Origin: an uncultured virus (IMG/VR IMGVR_UViG_3300020578_000049)
Taxonomy: Duplodnaviria > Heunggongvirae > Uroviricota > Caudoviricetes
IMG/VR virus record: IMGVR_UViG_3300020578_000049
DNA length: 64,000 nucleotides
Reading direction: 5' to 3' (one strand)
The notes beneath the pieces are model-generated. The model was not told the origin of the DNA, did not search any database, and saw only the letters and a program-made list of their open reading frames with translations. Both the position numbers and the translations under genes were made by a program. Shown here one piece after another: positions 4,740 to 47,677 of the stretch (within the stretch, counting starts at the first letter, position 1; each line of letters opens with the position of its first letter).

Positions 4740-5234
4740 ATGAAAAAAATTATAAGACTTACAGAATCAGATCTTGCAAGAATTGTTAAAAGAACAATTA
4801 TGGAACTTGATAGGTCCACATATGAAAGAGCCGCAGATAATGCAAATCAAAGAGGTTATTCAAAATTAGGTAATAGATTTCGTGAACACGGAAAAGAATT
4901 TGGTTTAAACCAAGAAACAGGTAATGTTACAATGGTTGTAAAATATAAAGATGAAGAACAAACTTTAAACGTAAGAATTAATAGTGTTGAAGGGGAACCT
5001 AGTTATTCTATGAGTTATGCGATGAAAACAGAAGACCTTGAAACTGGAAATAAAAAAACATTTATGATAAACAAATATCTAGGTGAAATGGAGTTTTATT
5101 TAAGTGGTGATTATCCATCTTTACCAAAAACAAGAACGGATGCTAAAAAGGTCTTAAAAGCTTTTGAAAGTAATGGTATTGATGCTAGTGATATTGACCC
5201 AAGGTCAATATCATATGATGATACCGATTTTTAA
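4740..5234 (+). CDS. Hypothetical protein with MKKIIRLTE leader
   Basis: ATG 4740: MKKIIRLTESDLARIVKRTIME. Confidence 0.75.
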   Translation: MKKIIRLTESDLARIVKRTIMELDRSTYERAADNANQRGYSKLGNRFREHGKEFGLNQETGNVTMVVKYKDEEQTLNVRINSVEGEPSYSMSYAMKTEDLETGNKKTFMINKYLGEMEFYLSGDYPSLPKTRTDAKKVLKAFESNGIDASDIDPRSISYDDTDF

Positions 5235-5577: not shown

Positions 5578-5931
5578 ATGAAATCCCTAATTAGAAAAAT
5601 CCTTAAAGAAGAATATACACCAACCGAAACTGATTTTTTATATTATGAAGTCCCAAAAAAGTTGGTTGCTCAATTGGGAATTGAATTATTTAAAGAAGAA
5701 GATGTTGTTTACATTACTGAAATTCATTTTGATACGCAAAATGTCCTATTTCAACTTTTTTCTAGATATCCCTTTGTTCATGGTGAAGAAATACATTATG
5801 ATGAAGATAGGAATGTTCCAGGTGACTTTGAATCAAATATATTAATTCCAATTAAAGATTTACCAAAAAGTGTTCTTAATATAATACTAAGAAGATTGGA
5901 CCCAGAATATTTAAAATATATGAATCTATGA
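5578..5931 (+). CDS. Hypothetical protein with leader
   Basis: ATG 5578: MKSLIRKILKEE. Confidence 0.7.
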   Translation: MKSLIRKILKEEYTPTETDFLYYEVPKKLVAQLGIELFKEEDVVYITEIHFDTQNVLFQLFSRYPFVHGEEIHYDEDRNVPGDFESNILIPIKDLPKSVLNIILRRLDPEYLKYMNL

Positions 5932-6533
5932 AAATCCTTATAACTGAAAATCAAATACATTTACTTAGATTACTTGGGCAATTCATTGAAATTGTTGAAG
6001 ATCAGATTGAAGGTTATAAAGCCAATCTTAAATTTGCTTGGTGGTGTAAGGTTTATGATGAAGATAGTTTTACAACAAATCTTATTGATAGATCAATTGA
6101 AGAACTTATTGACCGAAACTGGGATTTTTTTCACGACAACACAGATAAGGGGGGAGCAACTATGGATCTTGAATTGATAGATGATTATGCTAGAGAACAT
6201 TATACCGAGCAAATTATTGATGTATTCAGACGTAAGTGTGGAAGTTCATTAAATGAATCAAAGATTGATTTTGTTAGAAGACTCCCAGCTGTTGAAGAAG
6301 AACTTAATAGACATTTAAAAAGGGTTGACCCCACAAAATTTGATTTCTTTCAACGTTATGTTGAATATCTTGCAAAAGTAACATTAATGTATGTTTCGGA
6401 TAATTTAATAAATCGTGATATTCGTGGAGAAAATTATGATTTATATACCGAATTTAGAAATCACATTATATATGGATTAAGAAATGATATAAGGGACATA
6501 TATGATAGCCGTAAACCTGGTGGTTTATTTTAA
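5928..6533 (+). CDS. Tandem two-domain 'RR-family' protein with leader
   Basis: MKILITENQ leader; internal SLNE then second domain KIDFVRRL. Confidence 0.7.
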   Translation: MKILITENQIHLLRLLGQFIEIVEDQIEGYKANLKFAWWCKVYDEDSFTTNLIDRSIEELIDRNWDFFHDNTDKGGATMDLELIDDYAREHYTEQIIDVFRRKCGSSLNESKIDFVRRLPAVEEELNRHLKRVDPTKFDFFQRYVEYLAKVTLMYVSDNLINRDIRGENYDLYTEFRNHIIYGLRNDIRDIYDSRKPGGLF

Positions 6534-40825: not shown

Positions 40826-40899
40826 GGTCCCGTAGCATAATTGAATAATGCAACTCACTTCTAATGAGTAGATTCCAGGTTTGAATCCTGGCGGGACTA
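40826..40899 (+). tRNA. tRNA-Arg(UCU)
   Basis: Acceptor GGTCCCG/CGGGACT; anticodon arm ACTCA-CTTCTAA-TGAGT; T arm CCAGG-TTTGAAT-CCTGG; CCA not encoded. Confidence 0.9.
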
Positions 40900-41825: not shown

Positions 41826-41892
41826 TTTTTTTTCAAAAACACTTTGGGTGGGTACAACCCGAAGTCGGTCCCGAGCTAGGTCGGGCACTACT

Positions 41893-41965
41893 ATGTCTCT
41901 GGTGTAATGGTTTAGCATAAACGGCTTCAACCCGTTCGGTTAGGGGTTAAATCCTTGTGTACGTG
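41893..41965 (+). tRNA. Degenerate tRNA with UCA anticodon (pseudo-tRNA or opal reader)
   Basis: D arm GTGT-AATGGTTTA-GCAT; anticodon arm AACGG-CTTCAAC-CCGTT; acceptor and T arms mismatched. Confidence 0.5.
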
Positions 41966-42012
41966 TTAATTTTTAATTTTGTCAATCAAAAAACTTTTTG
42001 TATATTTGTATT

Positions 42013-42987: not shown

Positions 42988-43038
42988 AAAATTCTACATA
43001 TCTTTGTAAGACAAATAAGGAATAAAGGTTCTTTGAAA
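42975..43038 (+). promoter_or_regulatory. Bacteroidota-type promoter plus boxA-like element
   Basis: TTTG 42975, TATCTTTG 42999-43006, GTTCTTTGAAA 43028-43038. Confidence 0.7.
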
Positions 43039-43050
43039 TATTGAAAAACA

Positions 43051-43143
43051 TTGTGGTTGTAAGAAACGGGAAACTCGTAAAGTGTATCAACCTGTTAAAT
43101 CAAGATAGTGAAACGAGAGTTTGATTTAACTACTAAACTACAA
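43051..43143 (+). ncRNA. Structured RNA element (three-stem junction)
   Basis: TTGTGGTT/AACTACAA closing stem; GTTAAATCAA/TTGATTTAAC 10 bp; ACGGG-AAA-CTCGT. Confidence 0.55.
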
Positions 43144-43149
43144 AAAAAC

Positions 43150-43254
43150 AGTCAAGTGGCGGAATTGGTAGACGCTGGGAGAGATACCCAAGACTCCTTG
43201 GAATAAGGTAAATATTACACTTATTCCGTGCAGGTTCGAATCCTGTCCTGACAA
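43150..43254 (+). ncRNA. tRNA-Leu-derived tRNA-like RNA with enlarged anticodon loop and long variable arm
   Basis: TGGCGGAATTGGTAGACGC D arm; GCAGG-TTCGAAT-CCTGT T arm; 12-nt anticodon loop. Confidence 0.65.
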
Positions 43255-43486
43255 CAGTGGTTACCTGACTCCGATAGGACGGTAAAACCCATTGGGAAAT
43301 CGGAAGTCCGTGAATGGGGGCGCAAGCAAAGAAGAACTTACAATGGTGGAGTGCCTAAGACAAAAGAAACGAAGCGTATGGGTGATCATGCGTTGGATTC
43401 AAATCTCCACCTTTTTTAAATTAAAAAAATTATGACACCACTATTGTTAATATCATTTATATTGTTTATGTTTGTCATAAGAAAAA

Positions 43487-43576
43487 GACATTAGTAAACT
43501 TCAGTTCCCACACAGCGGTGAGATGGGCTAAGTTATATACAATTCCTCGGGGCTGGGAGTAGAAAGCTGAAGAGTC
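43487..43576 (+). ncRNA. Structured RNA element
   Basis: CTTCAGTT/AGCTGAAG closing stem; CCCA/TGGG inner stem; GC-rich island. Confidence 0.45.
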
Positions 43577-43582
43577 GTTGTT

Positions 43583-43698
43583 TGTCAGGAGTGTAATGAG
43601 GCATGGTGCCGAGTCCGAAAAACACCACGGTCCAAGAGCAATTTGGACGCGAAAAGTTATAAGGTTGCTCATTGTGGGTTCGAATCCCACCCTGACAT
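43583..43698 (+). ncRNA. tRNA-like RNA with pseudoknotted insertion
   Basis: Acceptor TGTCAGG/CCTGACA; T arm GTGGG-TTCGAAT-CCCAC; internal hairpin whose loop pairs downstream. Confidence 0.65.
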
Positions 43699-43960
43699 CT
43701 AAAAAAGTTAATTTGAAATTTGTGGATAATATTTTATAATATAGTTCTATTCATCTATTACATTGTAACGTATTTTGTGTTCGTATTTATTAAAAAACAA
43801 ATATCATGGAAGTAATTATTGCTTGTTTAGTACCCATTTCTCTTATTGGAATTCTTTTAGTTTCTTATTTAAGATATAAGGGAAAATAAAATATAATTTG
43901 ATTTTTTTTCATTTCTTTTTGTATTTATATAAAAACAAATAAACGTTAAATCAAATTAAA

Positions 43961-44128
43961 ATGAAATTAACAAAAGAACAAGTTTTAGGAATTGTTAGAC
44001 ATGCTTTGACATTTGTTGGTGGTATCGTTGTAATGAAAGGATGGGCTGATGAAAGTGTTGTTGTTGAAATTACTGGTGGTGTTATGACACTAGTTGGTGC
44101 AATCTGGTCAATCATTGCAAAAAAATAA
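43961..44128 (+). CDS. Putative holin (55 aa, two TM)
   Basis: GIVRHALTFVGG...LVGAIWS; TATTTAT upstream; terminator downstream. Confidence 0.65.
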   Translation: MKLTKEQVLGIVRHALTFVGGIVVMKGWADESVVVEITGGVMTLVGAIWSIIAKK

Positions 44129-44207
44129 GTTTCTTATAACTTTTTGTGAACCCCATCTTTTAGGTGGGGTTTTTTGTTGATTAAAAAAAAAGTTATATCT
44201 TTGTTAT

Positions 44208-46064: not shown

Positions 46065-46912
46065 AATTATCCGTTCAGGAGTAAGTAATGAAACTGATAA
46101 AGATATTGGGCCGTGTATAGTCCATAAAATAAACTGGGAAACCAGGATAAAGTGAATCATTCGTGTAAATGGTTTGCGGTTTGGGAAACTGAACGTGAGT
46201 ACACAAGCGGGATACCGTTTAACCTTTAATACCGAGGGCAACGCTGTAGGGAAAGTGGTTAGATGATTGGGCGATGTGGGTCGTCTGATTGAAGTGGGAA
46301 CACTAATAGGAATAACCCGTAGGAATATTGCAAAAAATAGAATTATCCAATTTTATCATTGCGTGTTCCAATATTAGAGATTGTTTAAAACCGAAAGGTA
46401 TGTTAATGTACGGGTGGTGCCGTTATTCACCTTGTCAAACTTGAACCAAGAAGTTAGACACGAAGTAGTCTTGAAGTATGGAAACTGGGAAGTTTCACGA
46501 AGTTGTTTAGTATTTCATAATCCAAAAGATAATGAAACTTTAGGTGGACCACAACTTCGATAATCCACAACACAAAAACATTTTTTTATAATTGGATATA
46601 AAAATCATAAAAGTAATAATGGAAAAGTGTCCATCACGGTATAACGGAAGTTGCCCACTTAGTCGTGAGATGTTCACGGCACATAAGGTTCCCAAGACCG
46701 AATGTATTTCTACCAAAAACCTCTAATCTCGCAAGGATTTACTGGGAAGGCATTCTCGGAGAGAGTTAAGTAATAGGAGAGTAGTTATATCGTTAAGGAG
46801 TGATTCACCTAAATAATCGGCAATGAGAAATACCATTCAAAAGATGGTGGATAAGAGTAGAAACAATAATGACTCTAAAGGTTCTCAATAAAACGTGTAA
46901 TCTCAACGTTCT
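46065..46912 (+). ncRNA. Large (~850 nt) highly structured ncRNA, GOLLD-like candidate
   Basis: No credible ORF; raised GC; many hairpins, several with GNRA loops; own promoter and boxA. Confidence 0.7.
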
Positions 46913-47286: not shown

Positions 47287-47677
47287 TGGTGGATCCGGAG
47301 GGACTCGAACCCTCGTCCGGTTCATCTTGTTTAAGAGACGACTACATGTTTAGGTTGGTATTTTCTAATACCCCAAAATATTTGATTTGTTCTTCAACAT
47401 CGTAAATCAACAACCAATGGTCCCGAATCGGATTTAGAGAGCCATCCGGTGTGCTCTATCAAACTACGACTTCTGTTGCTAGGTTATATGTCTGCCGACC
47501 CCCCGTTTCCGTATCTAATTAAGCTACAGTAACTTCAGAACCTCTTACTAATCCAAGAGTTTCCATTTTGTTTAGCACATTGCCAGTTGTTTTGTGAATC
47601 AGTTTTTAACGAGATTAATTCAGTCCCGACATGCTTCTATTATTCAACCAACGCCCGTCAAATCCAAAAACGGACCC
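47287..47677 (-). ncRNA. ssrA: tmRNA
   Basis: 5' GGGTCCG..GGATTTGAC; 3' GAGGGTTCGAGTCCCTC-CGGATCC-ACCA; G3.U70; tag frame 47584-47519. Confidence 0.92.

What the first reader, a model, noticed from the sequence alone, without database searches (positions are those of the whole stretch)
43583..43698. tRNA mimic with an H-type pseudoknot in the variable region
Seen: a perfect 7-bp acceptor and canonical T arm, and a TGGTG/CACCA arm with a 14-nt loop. Next is hairpin GTCCAA-GAGCAAT-TTGGAC (43630-43648), whose loop GAGCAA is exactly complementary to TTGCTC (43665-43670). I know no tRNA class with this layout; it is reminiscent of a miniature tmRNA-like or ligand-binding RNA.
Basis: partly seen in the sequence, partly recalled or inferred. 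Interest (0 to 1): 0.7.

Follow-up and report, generated by a model that had tools for sequence, protein, structure and literature searches.

The report
Phage tRNA mimic with swappable tip
This is a conserved, expressed tRNA-shaped RNA gene of lake-water jumbo phages that almost certainly does not decode, and the proposed pseudoknot lies in an optional 46-base cassette at the tip of its anticodon-like arm and is not supported.

Summary
Comparison with 77 distinct homologs supports only three of them as helices: the acceptor stem, the T arm and the GTCCAA/TTGGAC hairpin. The pseudoknot (GAGCAA with TTGCTC) shows no compensatory change. It is complete in 11 of 28 type-A sequences. Its partner GCTC is the 3' strand of a helix supported by covariation and present in every form, including forms that lack the hairpin. 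TGGTG/CACCA is also unsupported, because TGGTG is the loop and 3' strand of a covarying 4-bp mini-hairpin.

The element belongs to a family in the tRNA islands of freshwater jumbo phages. It has a constant 34 + 36-nt tRNA-like scaffold. A hypervariable tip sits where the anticodon loop would be: 5-8 nt, a 13-nt hairpin, or one of two 46-nt cassettes. Byte-identical scaffolds carry different tips.

It fails the tRNA tests: Rfam score below threshold, A8, no canonical D arm, no fixed 7-nt loop. Metatranscriptome contigs from two studies cover it at high depth with the cassette retained. No splicing enzymes were found in five related phage records.

Best reading: a non-decoding tRNA mimic with an exchangeable display arm. 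Its function is inferred only.

The parts
43583..43589 (+). Acceptor stem, 5' strand (TGTCAGG). Pairs with 43691-43697.
   Evidence: Covariation: 6 of 7 pairs have changes on both sides.
43590..43599 (+). 10-nt conserved single-stranded linker AGTGTAATGA. It stands where U8-N9 and the 5' D stem would be in a tRNA.
   Evidence: A8 in 73 of 77 distinct family members. Most of this stretch was fixed by my search patterns, so its conservation is partly ascertainment.
43600..43610 (+). H1: D-arm-like mini-hairpin GGCA-TGG-TGCC (4 bp, 3-nt loop YGG).
   Evidence: Third pair is C-G 31, A-U 1, G-C 1, U-A 1. RNAalifold predicts it in 6 of the 7 tip groups folded; the 8-nt-tip group folded differently there, and type A was not folded.
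43611..43616 (+). H2, 5' strand: GAGT (lower) plus CC (upper). This is the base of the anticodon-arm equivalent.
   Evidence: Pairs with GCTC 43667-43670 and GG 43663-43664. Pair 29:88 is G-C 21, A-U 7, other 6. CC/GG continues into TTCC/GGAA in the 13-nt forms.
43617..43662 (+). Type-A 46-nt tip cassette (GAAAAAC...GTTATAA). Optional: replaced by 5-8 nt, a 13-nt hairpin or the type-B cassette in homologs.
   Evidence: identical scaffolds carry different tips. (model puts it in the apical loop). One copy in each of the four records that match; G004 has none.
43621..43623 (+). Helix a, 5' strand (AAC). Pairs with GTT 43656-43658.
   Evidence: GAC/GTT changes to AGT/ACT: 2 pairs changed on both sides in 8 sequences. 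Type B has GAC/GTC.
43628..43651 (+). Distal stem-loop CG-GTCCAA-GAGCAAT-TTGGAC-G-CG.
   Evidence: 96% of cells paired and 2 pairs changed on both sides.
43663..43670 (+). H2, 3' strand: GG, a TT bulge, then GCTC.
43671..43673 (+). 3-nt junction ATT between H2 and the T arm.
43674..43690 (+). T arm GTGGG-TTCGAAT-CCCAC.
   Evidence: matches the T arm of the tmRNA/tRNA clan; 3 of 5 pairs changed on both sides.
43691..43698 (+). Acceptor stem, 3' strand CCTGACA, plus discriminator T. No CCA is encoded.

Best explanation
The element is one allele of a single-copy gene for a non-decoding, tRNA-shaped RNA that sits in the tRNA island of a clade of freshwater jumbo phages.

Shown:
- Architecture: a four-way junction made of a 7-bp acceptor stem, a 10-nt linker, a 4-bp mini-hairpin with a YGG loop (H1), a basal arm helix (RAGU/GCUY, UU bulge, CC/GG; H2), 3 nt, and a canonical T arm.
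- The tip of H2 is a swappable module. The window carries the 46-nt type-A cassette, which folds as a further helix plus a 7-nt-loop hairpin.
- The DNA stretch stands in RNA libraries of two studies with the cassette still in it.

Inferred:
- Host RNase P, RNase Z and the CCA-adding enzyme recognise the conserved top half (acceptor, T arm, elbow). They would mature and stabilise it like a tRNA.
- The bottom arm cannot present an anticodon. It acts instead as a display or decoy arm whose tip is under rapid turnover.
- Most likely role: engaging a host or phage tRNA-binding factor, for example an anticodon-loop nuclease or another tRNA-targeting defence.

The proposed pseudoknot is a coincidental complementarity between the cassette loop and the 3' strand of H2.
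For: Homologs:
- 16 of the 19 viral loci from an acceptor/T-arm pattern are 116-nt copies of this element.
- 133 loci came from a 5'-half pattern. 131 of them plus the window parsed into 77 distinct sequences.

Structure:
- On 34 insert-free or divergent members, 98% of cells pair, 12 of 22 pairs change on both sides, and 0 of 500 shuffles reach that.
- On 28 type-A members, 96.6% of cells pair and 6 pairs change on both sides.

Not a decoding tRNA:
- No ARAGORN call at default settings and no Rfam tRNA hit in the window.
- The G001 copy scores 21.6 bits against a threshold of 29.
- Two of 12 short forms score 26.4-26.6 bits; the other ten are not reported.
- A8 in 73 of 77 members, against T8 in 21 of 22 canonical tRNAs of the same phage clade.
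- Tip length in the 28 distinct short forms is 5, 6, 7 or 8 nt in 13, 5, 3 and 7 sequences.
- G001 already has 22 canonical tRNAs.

Swappable tip:
- 9 of 60 distinct scaffolds carry more than one tip.
- The window's exact scaffold also occurs with TTTAT and with the type-B cassette.

A covariance model built from insert-free forms alone hits the window at 85.9 bits, E 2.6e-22, once per genome.

Expression:
- RNA-library contigs in X20 and X22 (two studies) cover 43495-43697. Depth is up to about 70 in X20 and about 180-485 in X22, against 0-11 in the flanking bins.
- A 105-nt contig at depth 181 spans the whole cassette.

RtcB and the tRNA-splicing endonuclease are absent from all 5 related records, three of them 93-99% complete.

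Energy of the comparative model is -36.3 kcal/mol.
Against: - No function was tested. The decoy or display role is inference from the pattern of a conserved top half and a hypervariable tip.
- The 5' half looks conserved partly because my search patterns fixed it. Only five more divergent members were found (L180, L190, L205, L219 and L226).
- With a 5-nt tip, C-X-G can be drawn as a 7-nt loop closed by C-G. The 'anticodons' would then be UUA, UUG and GUA, which are single-step neighbours, so an ancestral or residual decoding role is not excluded.
- H2 is imperfect: pair 29:88 is unpaired in 6 of 34 and in 10 of 28 sequences.
- The RNA data are contigs, not reads. They cannot show RNA ends, strand, CCA addition or the absence of a spliced form, and DNA carry-over in RNA libraries cannot be excluded.
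- A similar hairpin interrupts an otherwise canonical tRNA-Arg(UCU) directly after the anticodon in L008 and L017. That fits an intron-like reading.
Confidence: 0.6

Rival explanations
1. It is a genuine tRNA gene interrupted by an intron in the anticodon loop, like the 'enigmatic' tRNA introns reported in Lak megaphages. The 46-nt cassette is removed and the short forms are intron-less alleles.
For: - ARAGORN with introns allowed and the threshold lowered to 80% calls a tRNA with a 43-nt intron at this spot.
- There is presence/absence polymorphism on identical flanks.
- A related hairpin sits directly 3' of the anticodon of a canonical tRNA-Arg(UCU) in L008 and L017.
- The Lak phage preprint reports conserved tRNA introns with insert-free alleles and says they may be common in large phages (10.1101/356790; passages read).
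Against: - The insert-free forms are not good tRNAs: below the Rfam threshold, A8, no canonical D arm, and tip lengths of 5-8 nt.
- The long alleles do not contain the short allele's tip sequence, so precise excision cannot turn one into the other (direct reading).
- I saw no bulge-helix-bulge motif. The insert simply extends the arm as a rod (inspection only).
- RtcB and the splicing endonuclease were found in 0 of 5 records.
- The RNA contigs show no joint that removes the cassette cleanly, while a depth-181 contig retains it. Contigs cannot prove absence of a spliced form.
Confidence: 0.15
2. It is a tRNA-like processing signal (a 't-element' or punctuation mark). Its only job is to recruit RNase P and RNase Z so that neighbouring structured RNAs, such as the upstream element U, are cut out of a common transcript. 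The bottom arm is then free to drift.
For: - A contig runs continuously from U into the element (43495-43613; depth 269.6 in X22 and 29.1 in X20).
- U lies between a tRNA and this element in many relatives.
- The top half is conserved and the bottom half is variable.
- tRNA-like t-elements shape transcript ends in plant mitochondria (PMC1920247; search listing and abstract only).
Against: - 47 of 56 short-form loci have no U upstream.
- The linker, H1 and H2 base are kept although a processing signal would not need them; this conservation is partly ascertainment.
- Drift does not explain discrete, structured 46-nt cassettes of two types being swapped on identical scaffolds.
- Ordinary tRNAs nearby could do the same job.
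Confidence: 0.1
3. One reading: a tRNA-like RNA whose hairpin loop GAGCAA pairs with UUGCUC to form an H-type pseudoknot, giving a miniature tmRNA-like or ligand-binding fold.
For: - There is perfect 6-bp complementarity in the window.
- It is seen by chance in only 566 of 20000 shuffles.
- A 5-bp core (AGCAA/UUGCU) is kept in 16 of the 28 type-A sequences.
- The single-sequence MFE fold also pairs these segments.
Against: - 0 of 6 pairs change on both sides, and every change that occurs breaks or weakens a pair.
- 6 of 6 pairs survive in only 11 of 28 sequences.
- Type-B loops (GACACTT and variants) are not complementary, and short forms have no such loop, yet TTGCTC persists.
- GCUC is the 3' strand of the covarying helix H2, so both pairings cannot exist together.
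- There is no tmRNA-like tag region, position 3:70 is not G-U, and no SmpB was found.
Confidence: 0.03
4. It is a decaying tRNA pseudogene with no function.
For: - Non-canonical features.
- One clearly broken copy: L098 fuses the cassette's GTGGG to the T arm.
Against: - Compensatory changes in four helices across many phage lineages.
- Conserved position next to the Glu, Asp, Met and Arg tRNAs.
- One copy in each of the three sources checked.
- High depth in RNA-library contigs.
Confidence: 0.05

Closest known systems
'Enigmatic' introns in tRNA genes of Lak megaphages and other huge phages (Devoto et al., preprint 10.1101/356790; passages read)
   Same: Short inserts at the anticodon loop of tRNA genes in very large phage genomes. 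Alleles with and without the insert exist, the insert sequence is highly conserved, and the removal mechanism is unknown.
   Different: - Here the host gene is itself not a canonical tRNA even without the insert.
- The tip exists in at least four length classes and two cassette types.
- RNA-library contigs retain the insert.
tRNA-like domain of tmRNA (RF00023)
   Same: Acceptor stem plus T arm; a single-stranded D-loop analogue in place of a normal D arm; the anticodon arm replaced by a long helix that carries extra modules.
   Different: - Only the T arm matches the model (14.3 bits against a threshold of 47).
- No tag reading frame and no pseudoknots.
- Position 3:70 is U-A rather than G-U.
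- A separate full tmRNA gene lies at 47287-47677.
Bacterial and phage Y-RNA-like YrlA (RF02553), the partner of Ro60/Rsr
   Same: A tRNA-mimicking module found in bacteria and phages and not used for decoding. The Rsr link in jumbo phages is noted in PMC7824862 (passages read).
   Different: - No YrlA match in the window.
- In YrlA the RNA ends are at the anticodon-stem side (recalled); here they are at the acceptor stem.
- No TROVE/Ro60 gene in 0 of 5 records.
tRNA-like processing signals: plant mitochondrial t-elements (PMC1920247, abstract seen) and mascRNA (recalled)
   Same: A tRNA-shaped top half recognised by RNase P and RNase Z, with no decoding function.
   Different: Those serve to define the ends of a neighbouring RNA. 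Here a specific, conserved lower body and structured exchangeable cassettes argue for a function of the RNA itself.
Engineered 'tRNA scaffold' for expressing RNA inserts in the anticodon arm
   Same: Same topology: foreign hairpins are grafted on the anticodon stem and the tRNA top half provides processing and stability.
   Different: That scaffold is man-made. This would be a natural counterpart, if the display reading is right.

Membership tests
Canonical decoding tRNA (RF00005) | 7-bp acceptor stem and a 5-bp T stem with a TTCRANT loop | tested here: met
   99% and 98% of cells paired, with compensatory changes.
Canonical decoding tRNA (RF00005) | Score at or above the Rfam gathering threshold (29 bits), or a call by ARAGORN at default settings | tested here: not met
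   No hit in the window. G001 copy 21.6 bits. Short forms 26.4-26.6 bits in 2 of 12 loci and none reported in the other 10.
Canonical decoding tRNA (RF00005) | Anticodon loop of exactly 7 nt | tested here: not met
   Tip lengths are 5, 6, 7, 8, 13 and 46 nt between the conserved CC and GG. Fifteen of 28 distinct short forms are not 5 nt.
Canonical decoding tRNA (RF00005) | U8 and a 3-4-bp D stem closing a 7-11-nt D loop with G18 G19 | tested here: not met
   A8 in 73 of 77. The candidate D-stem pair 12:26 does not follow the changes at position 26, while 20:26 of the mini-hairpin does.
Intron-containing tRNA (protein-spliced, bulge-helix-bulge type) | Insert at the anticodon loop, with insert-free alleles | tested here: met
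Intron-containing tRNA (protein-spliced, bulge-helix-bulge type) | Bulge-helix-bulge motif at the junctions, and a splicing endonuclease plus ligase available | tested here: not met
   No such motif in the covariation-supported fold (inspection only). PF01974 and PF01139 found in 0 of 5 phage records. Host enzymes could not be tested.
Intron-containing tRNA (protein-spliced, bulge-helix-bulge type) | A spliced junction in RNA | tested here: inconclusive
   No clean excision joint, and the cassette is retained in a depth-181 contig. These are contigs, not reads.
tmRNA (RF00023) | Full-model match, a tag reading frame, G3-U70 and the SmpB partner | tested here: not met
   14.3 bits on the T arm only. 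Position 3:70 is U-A. SmpB in 0 of 5 records.
YrlA / Y RNA-like (RF02553) | Model match and a Ro60 (TROVE) partner | tested here: not met
   No match at E up to 10 in 43300-44000. TROVE in 0 of 5 records.
   0 of 6 pairs changed on both sides. 11 of 28 sequences keep all 6 pairs. The loop is absent from type-B and short forms.

The most novel reading that the evidence does not exclude
Jumbo phages carry natural 'tRNA scaffolds'. These are tRNA-shaped RNAs matured by the host tRNA machinery, whose anticodon-arm tip is a cassette exchanged by recombination between co-circulating phages. They would serve as fast-evolving decoys or inhibitors of host tRNA-targeting defences such as anticodon nucleases. 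The same cassettes, when they land in ordinary phage tRNA genes, would be what has been called 'enigmatic phage tRNA introns'.
Probability: 0.2. Interest if true: 0.8.

Novelty: new variant of a known kind. Interest (0 to 1): 0.55.

Why it matters
- tRNA islands of large phages are usually read as codon-usage helpers. This family shows that such islands also hold conserved, expressed tRNA look-alikes that standard tRNA finders and Rfam miss and that probably do not decode.
- Identical scaffolds with different tips give a concrete, testable handle on the unexplained 'tRNA introns' of huge phages.
- The same pattern bears on what the non-coding RNA islands around GOLLD do.
- If the tip is a decoy or display module, it would be a new kind of RNA-based counter-defence and a natural version of the engineered tRNA scaffold.

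Tried and rejected
- BLAST of 43000-44200 against GenBank phages found nothing.
- Relatives could not be drawn for a virus record, so I used pattern scans instead.
- A type-B cassette pattern with one N too many found nothing and cost a scan.
- The type-A hairpin pattern found no second genomic context. The other matches were coding sequence or one divergent ortholog, L163/L205.
- The canonical D stem (G11 T12 A13 with T25 N26 C27) and an alternative anticodon stem (G24-C28 with GTTGC) were both considered. Both were rejected because position 26 covaries with position 20, not with 12 or 38.
- ATGAG/CTCAT and AATG/CATT pairings between the linker and the junction were considered. No compensatory change was seen.
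- ARAGORN anticodon calls on the short forms are inconsistent (Ile, Leu, Thr, Tyr, Lys, Stop) and were not used.
- A minus-strand terminator reading of the hairpin was rejected. The hairpin is part of a plus-strand RNA whose other helices covary.
- The genome-collection scan gave a single MAG scaffold, so there is no host clue.
- Literature searches found no description of this family. They cover open-access papers and bioRxiv only.
- RNA runs X19 and X21 gave only short, low-depth pieces and add nothing.

Full report
**Where it lies.** The window is part of a 72-kb virus record that CheckV rates 25% complete, so the phage genome is probably near 290 kb. Related records of 254-291 kb exist. 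Rfam finds three RNAs in the window: a tRNA-Arg at 40826-40899, a GOLLD RNA at 46498-46909 and a tmRNA at 47287-47677 on the minus strand. The finding therefore sits in a non-coding RNA island of a jumbo phage. DNA runs that hold the stretch are lake-water metagenomes.

**Checking the observation.** The programs do not see a tRNA:
- ARAGORN at default settings calls only tRNA-Arg.
- Rfam reports only a 14.3-bit T-arm match here.
- ARAGORN with introns allowed and a lowered threshold calls a tRNA with a 43-nt intron after AGTCC.

**Homologs.** An acceptor/T-arm pattern found 19 viral loci, 16 of them 116-nt copies of the element. A pattern from the 5' half found 49 viral and 84 metagenome stretches, and some contigs occur in both collections. 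Of these 133 loci, one lacked the 5' end and one lacked the 3' end. The other 131 plus the window gave 77 distinct sequences.

All 77 share a 34-nt 5' part and a 36-nt 3' part (GGTTGCTCATT, T arm, acceptor). Between them lies a segment X that varies in length:

| Distinct sequences | Form of X |
|---|---|
| 28 | 5-8 nt (TTTAA, TTTAT, CTTGT, TGTAA, TTTTAA, TGTAAA, TTTTAAA, CGTAAAAA and similar) |
| 3 | 13-nt hairpin extension (TTCC-GTTGA-GGAA) |
| 28 | 46-nt 'type A' cassette (one of them is 45 nt); the window has this form |
| 17 | unrelated 46-nt 'type B' cassette |
| 1 | broken copy |

**Structure from comparison.**
- *Insert-free and divergent members (34 sequences).* I tested a model of acceptor, mini-hairpin H1 (GGNA-YGG-TNCC), basal arm H2 (RAGT/GCTY, TT bulge, CC/GG) and T arm. 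It gives 98% paired cells, 12 of 22 pairs changed on both sides, and 0 of 500 shuffles as good.
- *H1.* It rests on divergent members found with a looser pattern (GGAA/TTCC, GGTA/TACC, GGGA/TCCC). The same changes contradict both a canonical D stem and an alternative anticodon stem.
- *Type-A members (28 sequences).* Adding helix a (GAC/GTT changing to AGT/ACT) and the extended distal hairpin gives 96.6% paired cells and 6 pairs changed on both sides.
TGGTG/CACCA has no change on both sides, and its first pair forms in 10 of 28. Only 11 of 28 sequences keep the full pseudoknot.
- *Mutual exclusion.* The pseudoknot's 3' partner is the 3' strand of H2, so the two pairings exclude each other.
- *Energy.* The comparative model costs -36.3 kcal/mol.
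- *Covariance model.* A model built only from insert-free forms hits the window at 85.9 bits over its full length, with the insert in the apical loop. It hits once in each of the three sources checked: the window, the G001 island and the G004 region.

**Is it a tRNA?** The evidence says no.
- Rfam tRNA scores stay below the 29-bit threshold: 21.6 bits for the G001 copy, and 26.4-26.6 bits for 2 of 12 short forms.
- Position 8 is A in 73 of 77 members. It is T in 21 of 22 canonical tRNAs of the related phage G001.
- The loop length is not fixed.
- G001 already encodes 22 canonical tRNAs in a 6-kb island, where this gene sits between tRNA-Glu and tRNA-Asp. Similar neighbours recur in other relatives.

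I therefore read it as a non-decoding tRNA mimic. One caveat remains. With a 5-nt tip, a 7-nt loop C-X-G can be drawn whose 'anticodons' would be UUA, UUG and GUA. An ancestral decoding role cannot be excluded.

**The cassette.**
- Nine of 60 distinct scaffolds occur with more than one tip. The window's exact scaffold also occurs with TTTAT (L060, L102) and with type B (L137).
- Chimeras of the 5' flank and the core exist.
- The type-A cassette is single-copy in each of the four records that carry it; G004 has none.
- A hairpin resembling type B interrupts an otherwise canonical tRNA-Arg(UCU) directly after the anticodon in L008 and L017.
- This matches the 'enigmatic introns' described in Lak megaphage tRNAs (10.1101/356790, passages read).

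Against splicing:
- The long alleles do not contain the short tip sequence.
- The insert extends the arm as a rod, and I saw no bulge-helix-bulge motif.
- RtcB and the splicing endonuclease were found in 0 of 5 records.
- T4-type RNA ligase and a CCA-adding enzyme occur only in G004.

**Expression.** Six RNA runs held a small share of the stretch, and four were laid.
- In X20 and X22, which come from two studies, contigs cover 43495-43697. Depth is up to about 70 in X20 and about 180-485 in X22, against 0-11 in the flanking bins.
- A 105-nt contig at depth 181 spans 43584-43688 with the cassette intact.
- Another contig runs from 43495 into the element.
- The joints that were seen are other alleles from relatives: an ext13-like tip, TTTAT and type B.
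- These are contigs. Ends, strand and the absence of a spliced form cannot be read from them, and DNA carry-over is possible.

**Mechanism.**
- *Shown:* the architecture, the modular tip, and presence in RNA libraries with the insert.
- *Inferred from what is known of RNase P, RNase Z and CCA-adding enzymes, which read the acceptor/T-arm half (general knowledge):* the RNA is matured and stabilised like a tRNA, while its lower arm presents a variable module.
- *Preferred role:* I favour a decoy or display role in phage-host conflict. The reason is that variation is concentrated exactly where anticodon-loop nucleases and many tRNA-binding factors act, on otherwise identical scaffolds. This step is untested.

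**Comparison and novelty.**
- The closest described phenomenon is the huge-phage 'tRNA intron'.
- The closest architectures are the tmRNA tRNA-like domain and YrlA. Membership in both was tested and not met.
- GOLLD RNAs are known to lie near tRNA islands (10.1101/2024.12.08.627333, passages read).
- I found no description of this family in five literature searches. Subscription journals and supplements were not seen.
- I rate it a new variant of a known kind.

Noticed in passing
window 43150-43254 (+): A second tRNA-like gene with a class-II-type D arm (GGCGGAATTGGTAGACGC). It has a 12-nt loop (AGATACCCAAGA) where the anticodon loop would be, an 8-bp extra arm, and the same CCTGACA acceptor 3' strand. 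Rfam tRNA scores it 24.1 bits, below threshold. Paralogs of 85-125 nt with very different middles occur in relatives.
   Followed up: partly
window ~43490-43582 (+): A conserved structured element ('U') lies directly upstream of the finding. Three nested helices covary: CTTCAG/CTGAAG with CTCAAG/CTTGAG; CAGC/GCTG with CCGC/GCGG and CGGT/ACCG; GAG/CTC with ACG/CGT. The apical loop GGGCTAAGTTATATACAATT is conserved. There is no Rfam match. RNA-library contigs cover it at high depth and run on into the tRNA-like gene. In relatives it sits between a tRNA and this gene.
   Followed up: partly
window 43257-43412 (+): Another conserved non-coding block (GGTTACCTGACTCCGATAGG...). It ends in GGTGGAG...CTCCACC followed by a T run. 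In relatives the same block follows the finding's homologs (L110, L139, L145). An RNA-library contig in X20 covers 43304-43372 at depth 30.
   Followed up: no
window 46498-46909 (+): A GOLLD RNA 3' domain scores 302 bits and lies 2.8 kb downstream.
   Followed up: no
window 47287-47677 (-): A phage-encoded tmRNA scores 103.6 bits in Rfam but is not called by ARAGORN. No SmpB gene was found in this record or in four relatives.
   Followed up: partly
window 41892-41966 (+): A weak tRNA-like sequence with a CTTCAAC loop (anticodon UCA). It scores 26.7 bits in Rfam and ARAGORN calls it only at a lowered threshold. Its acceptor and T stems are poor.
   Followed up: partly
L008 2493-2595 (-), and L017: A tRNA-Arg(UCU) gene has an anticodon arm identical to a canonical copy in G001 but carries a 29-nt hairpin insert directly after the anticodon. 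The anticodon TTCT can pair with AGAA at the insert's 3' end.
   Followed up: partly
L235 (G001:264500-272500): The tRNA island of a 97%-complete relative holds 22 canonical tRNAs. It also holds at least four sub-threshold tRNA-like genes at 1375-1457, 4741-4865, 5020-5100 and 5827-5942.
   Followed up: partly
L098 351-434 (-): A deletion variant of the family. The GTGGG of the type-B cassette is fused to the T arm, which removes the 3' half of the cassette and the 3' strand of the basal arm. It is probably a broken copy.
   Followed up: no
window ~43426-43470 (+): An AT-rich block (TTATGACACCACTATTGTTAATATCATTTAT) is conserved upstream of the homologs in several relatives, with or without element U. 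It may be a promoter. The simple sigma-70 scan gives only a 9-of-12 match at 43472-43500.
   Followed up: no
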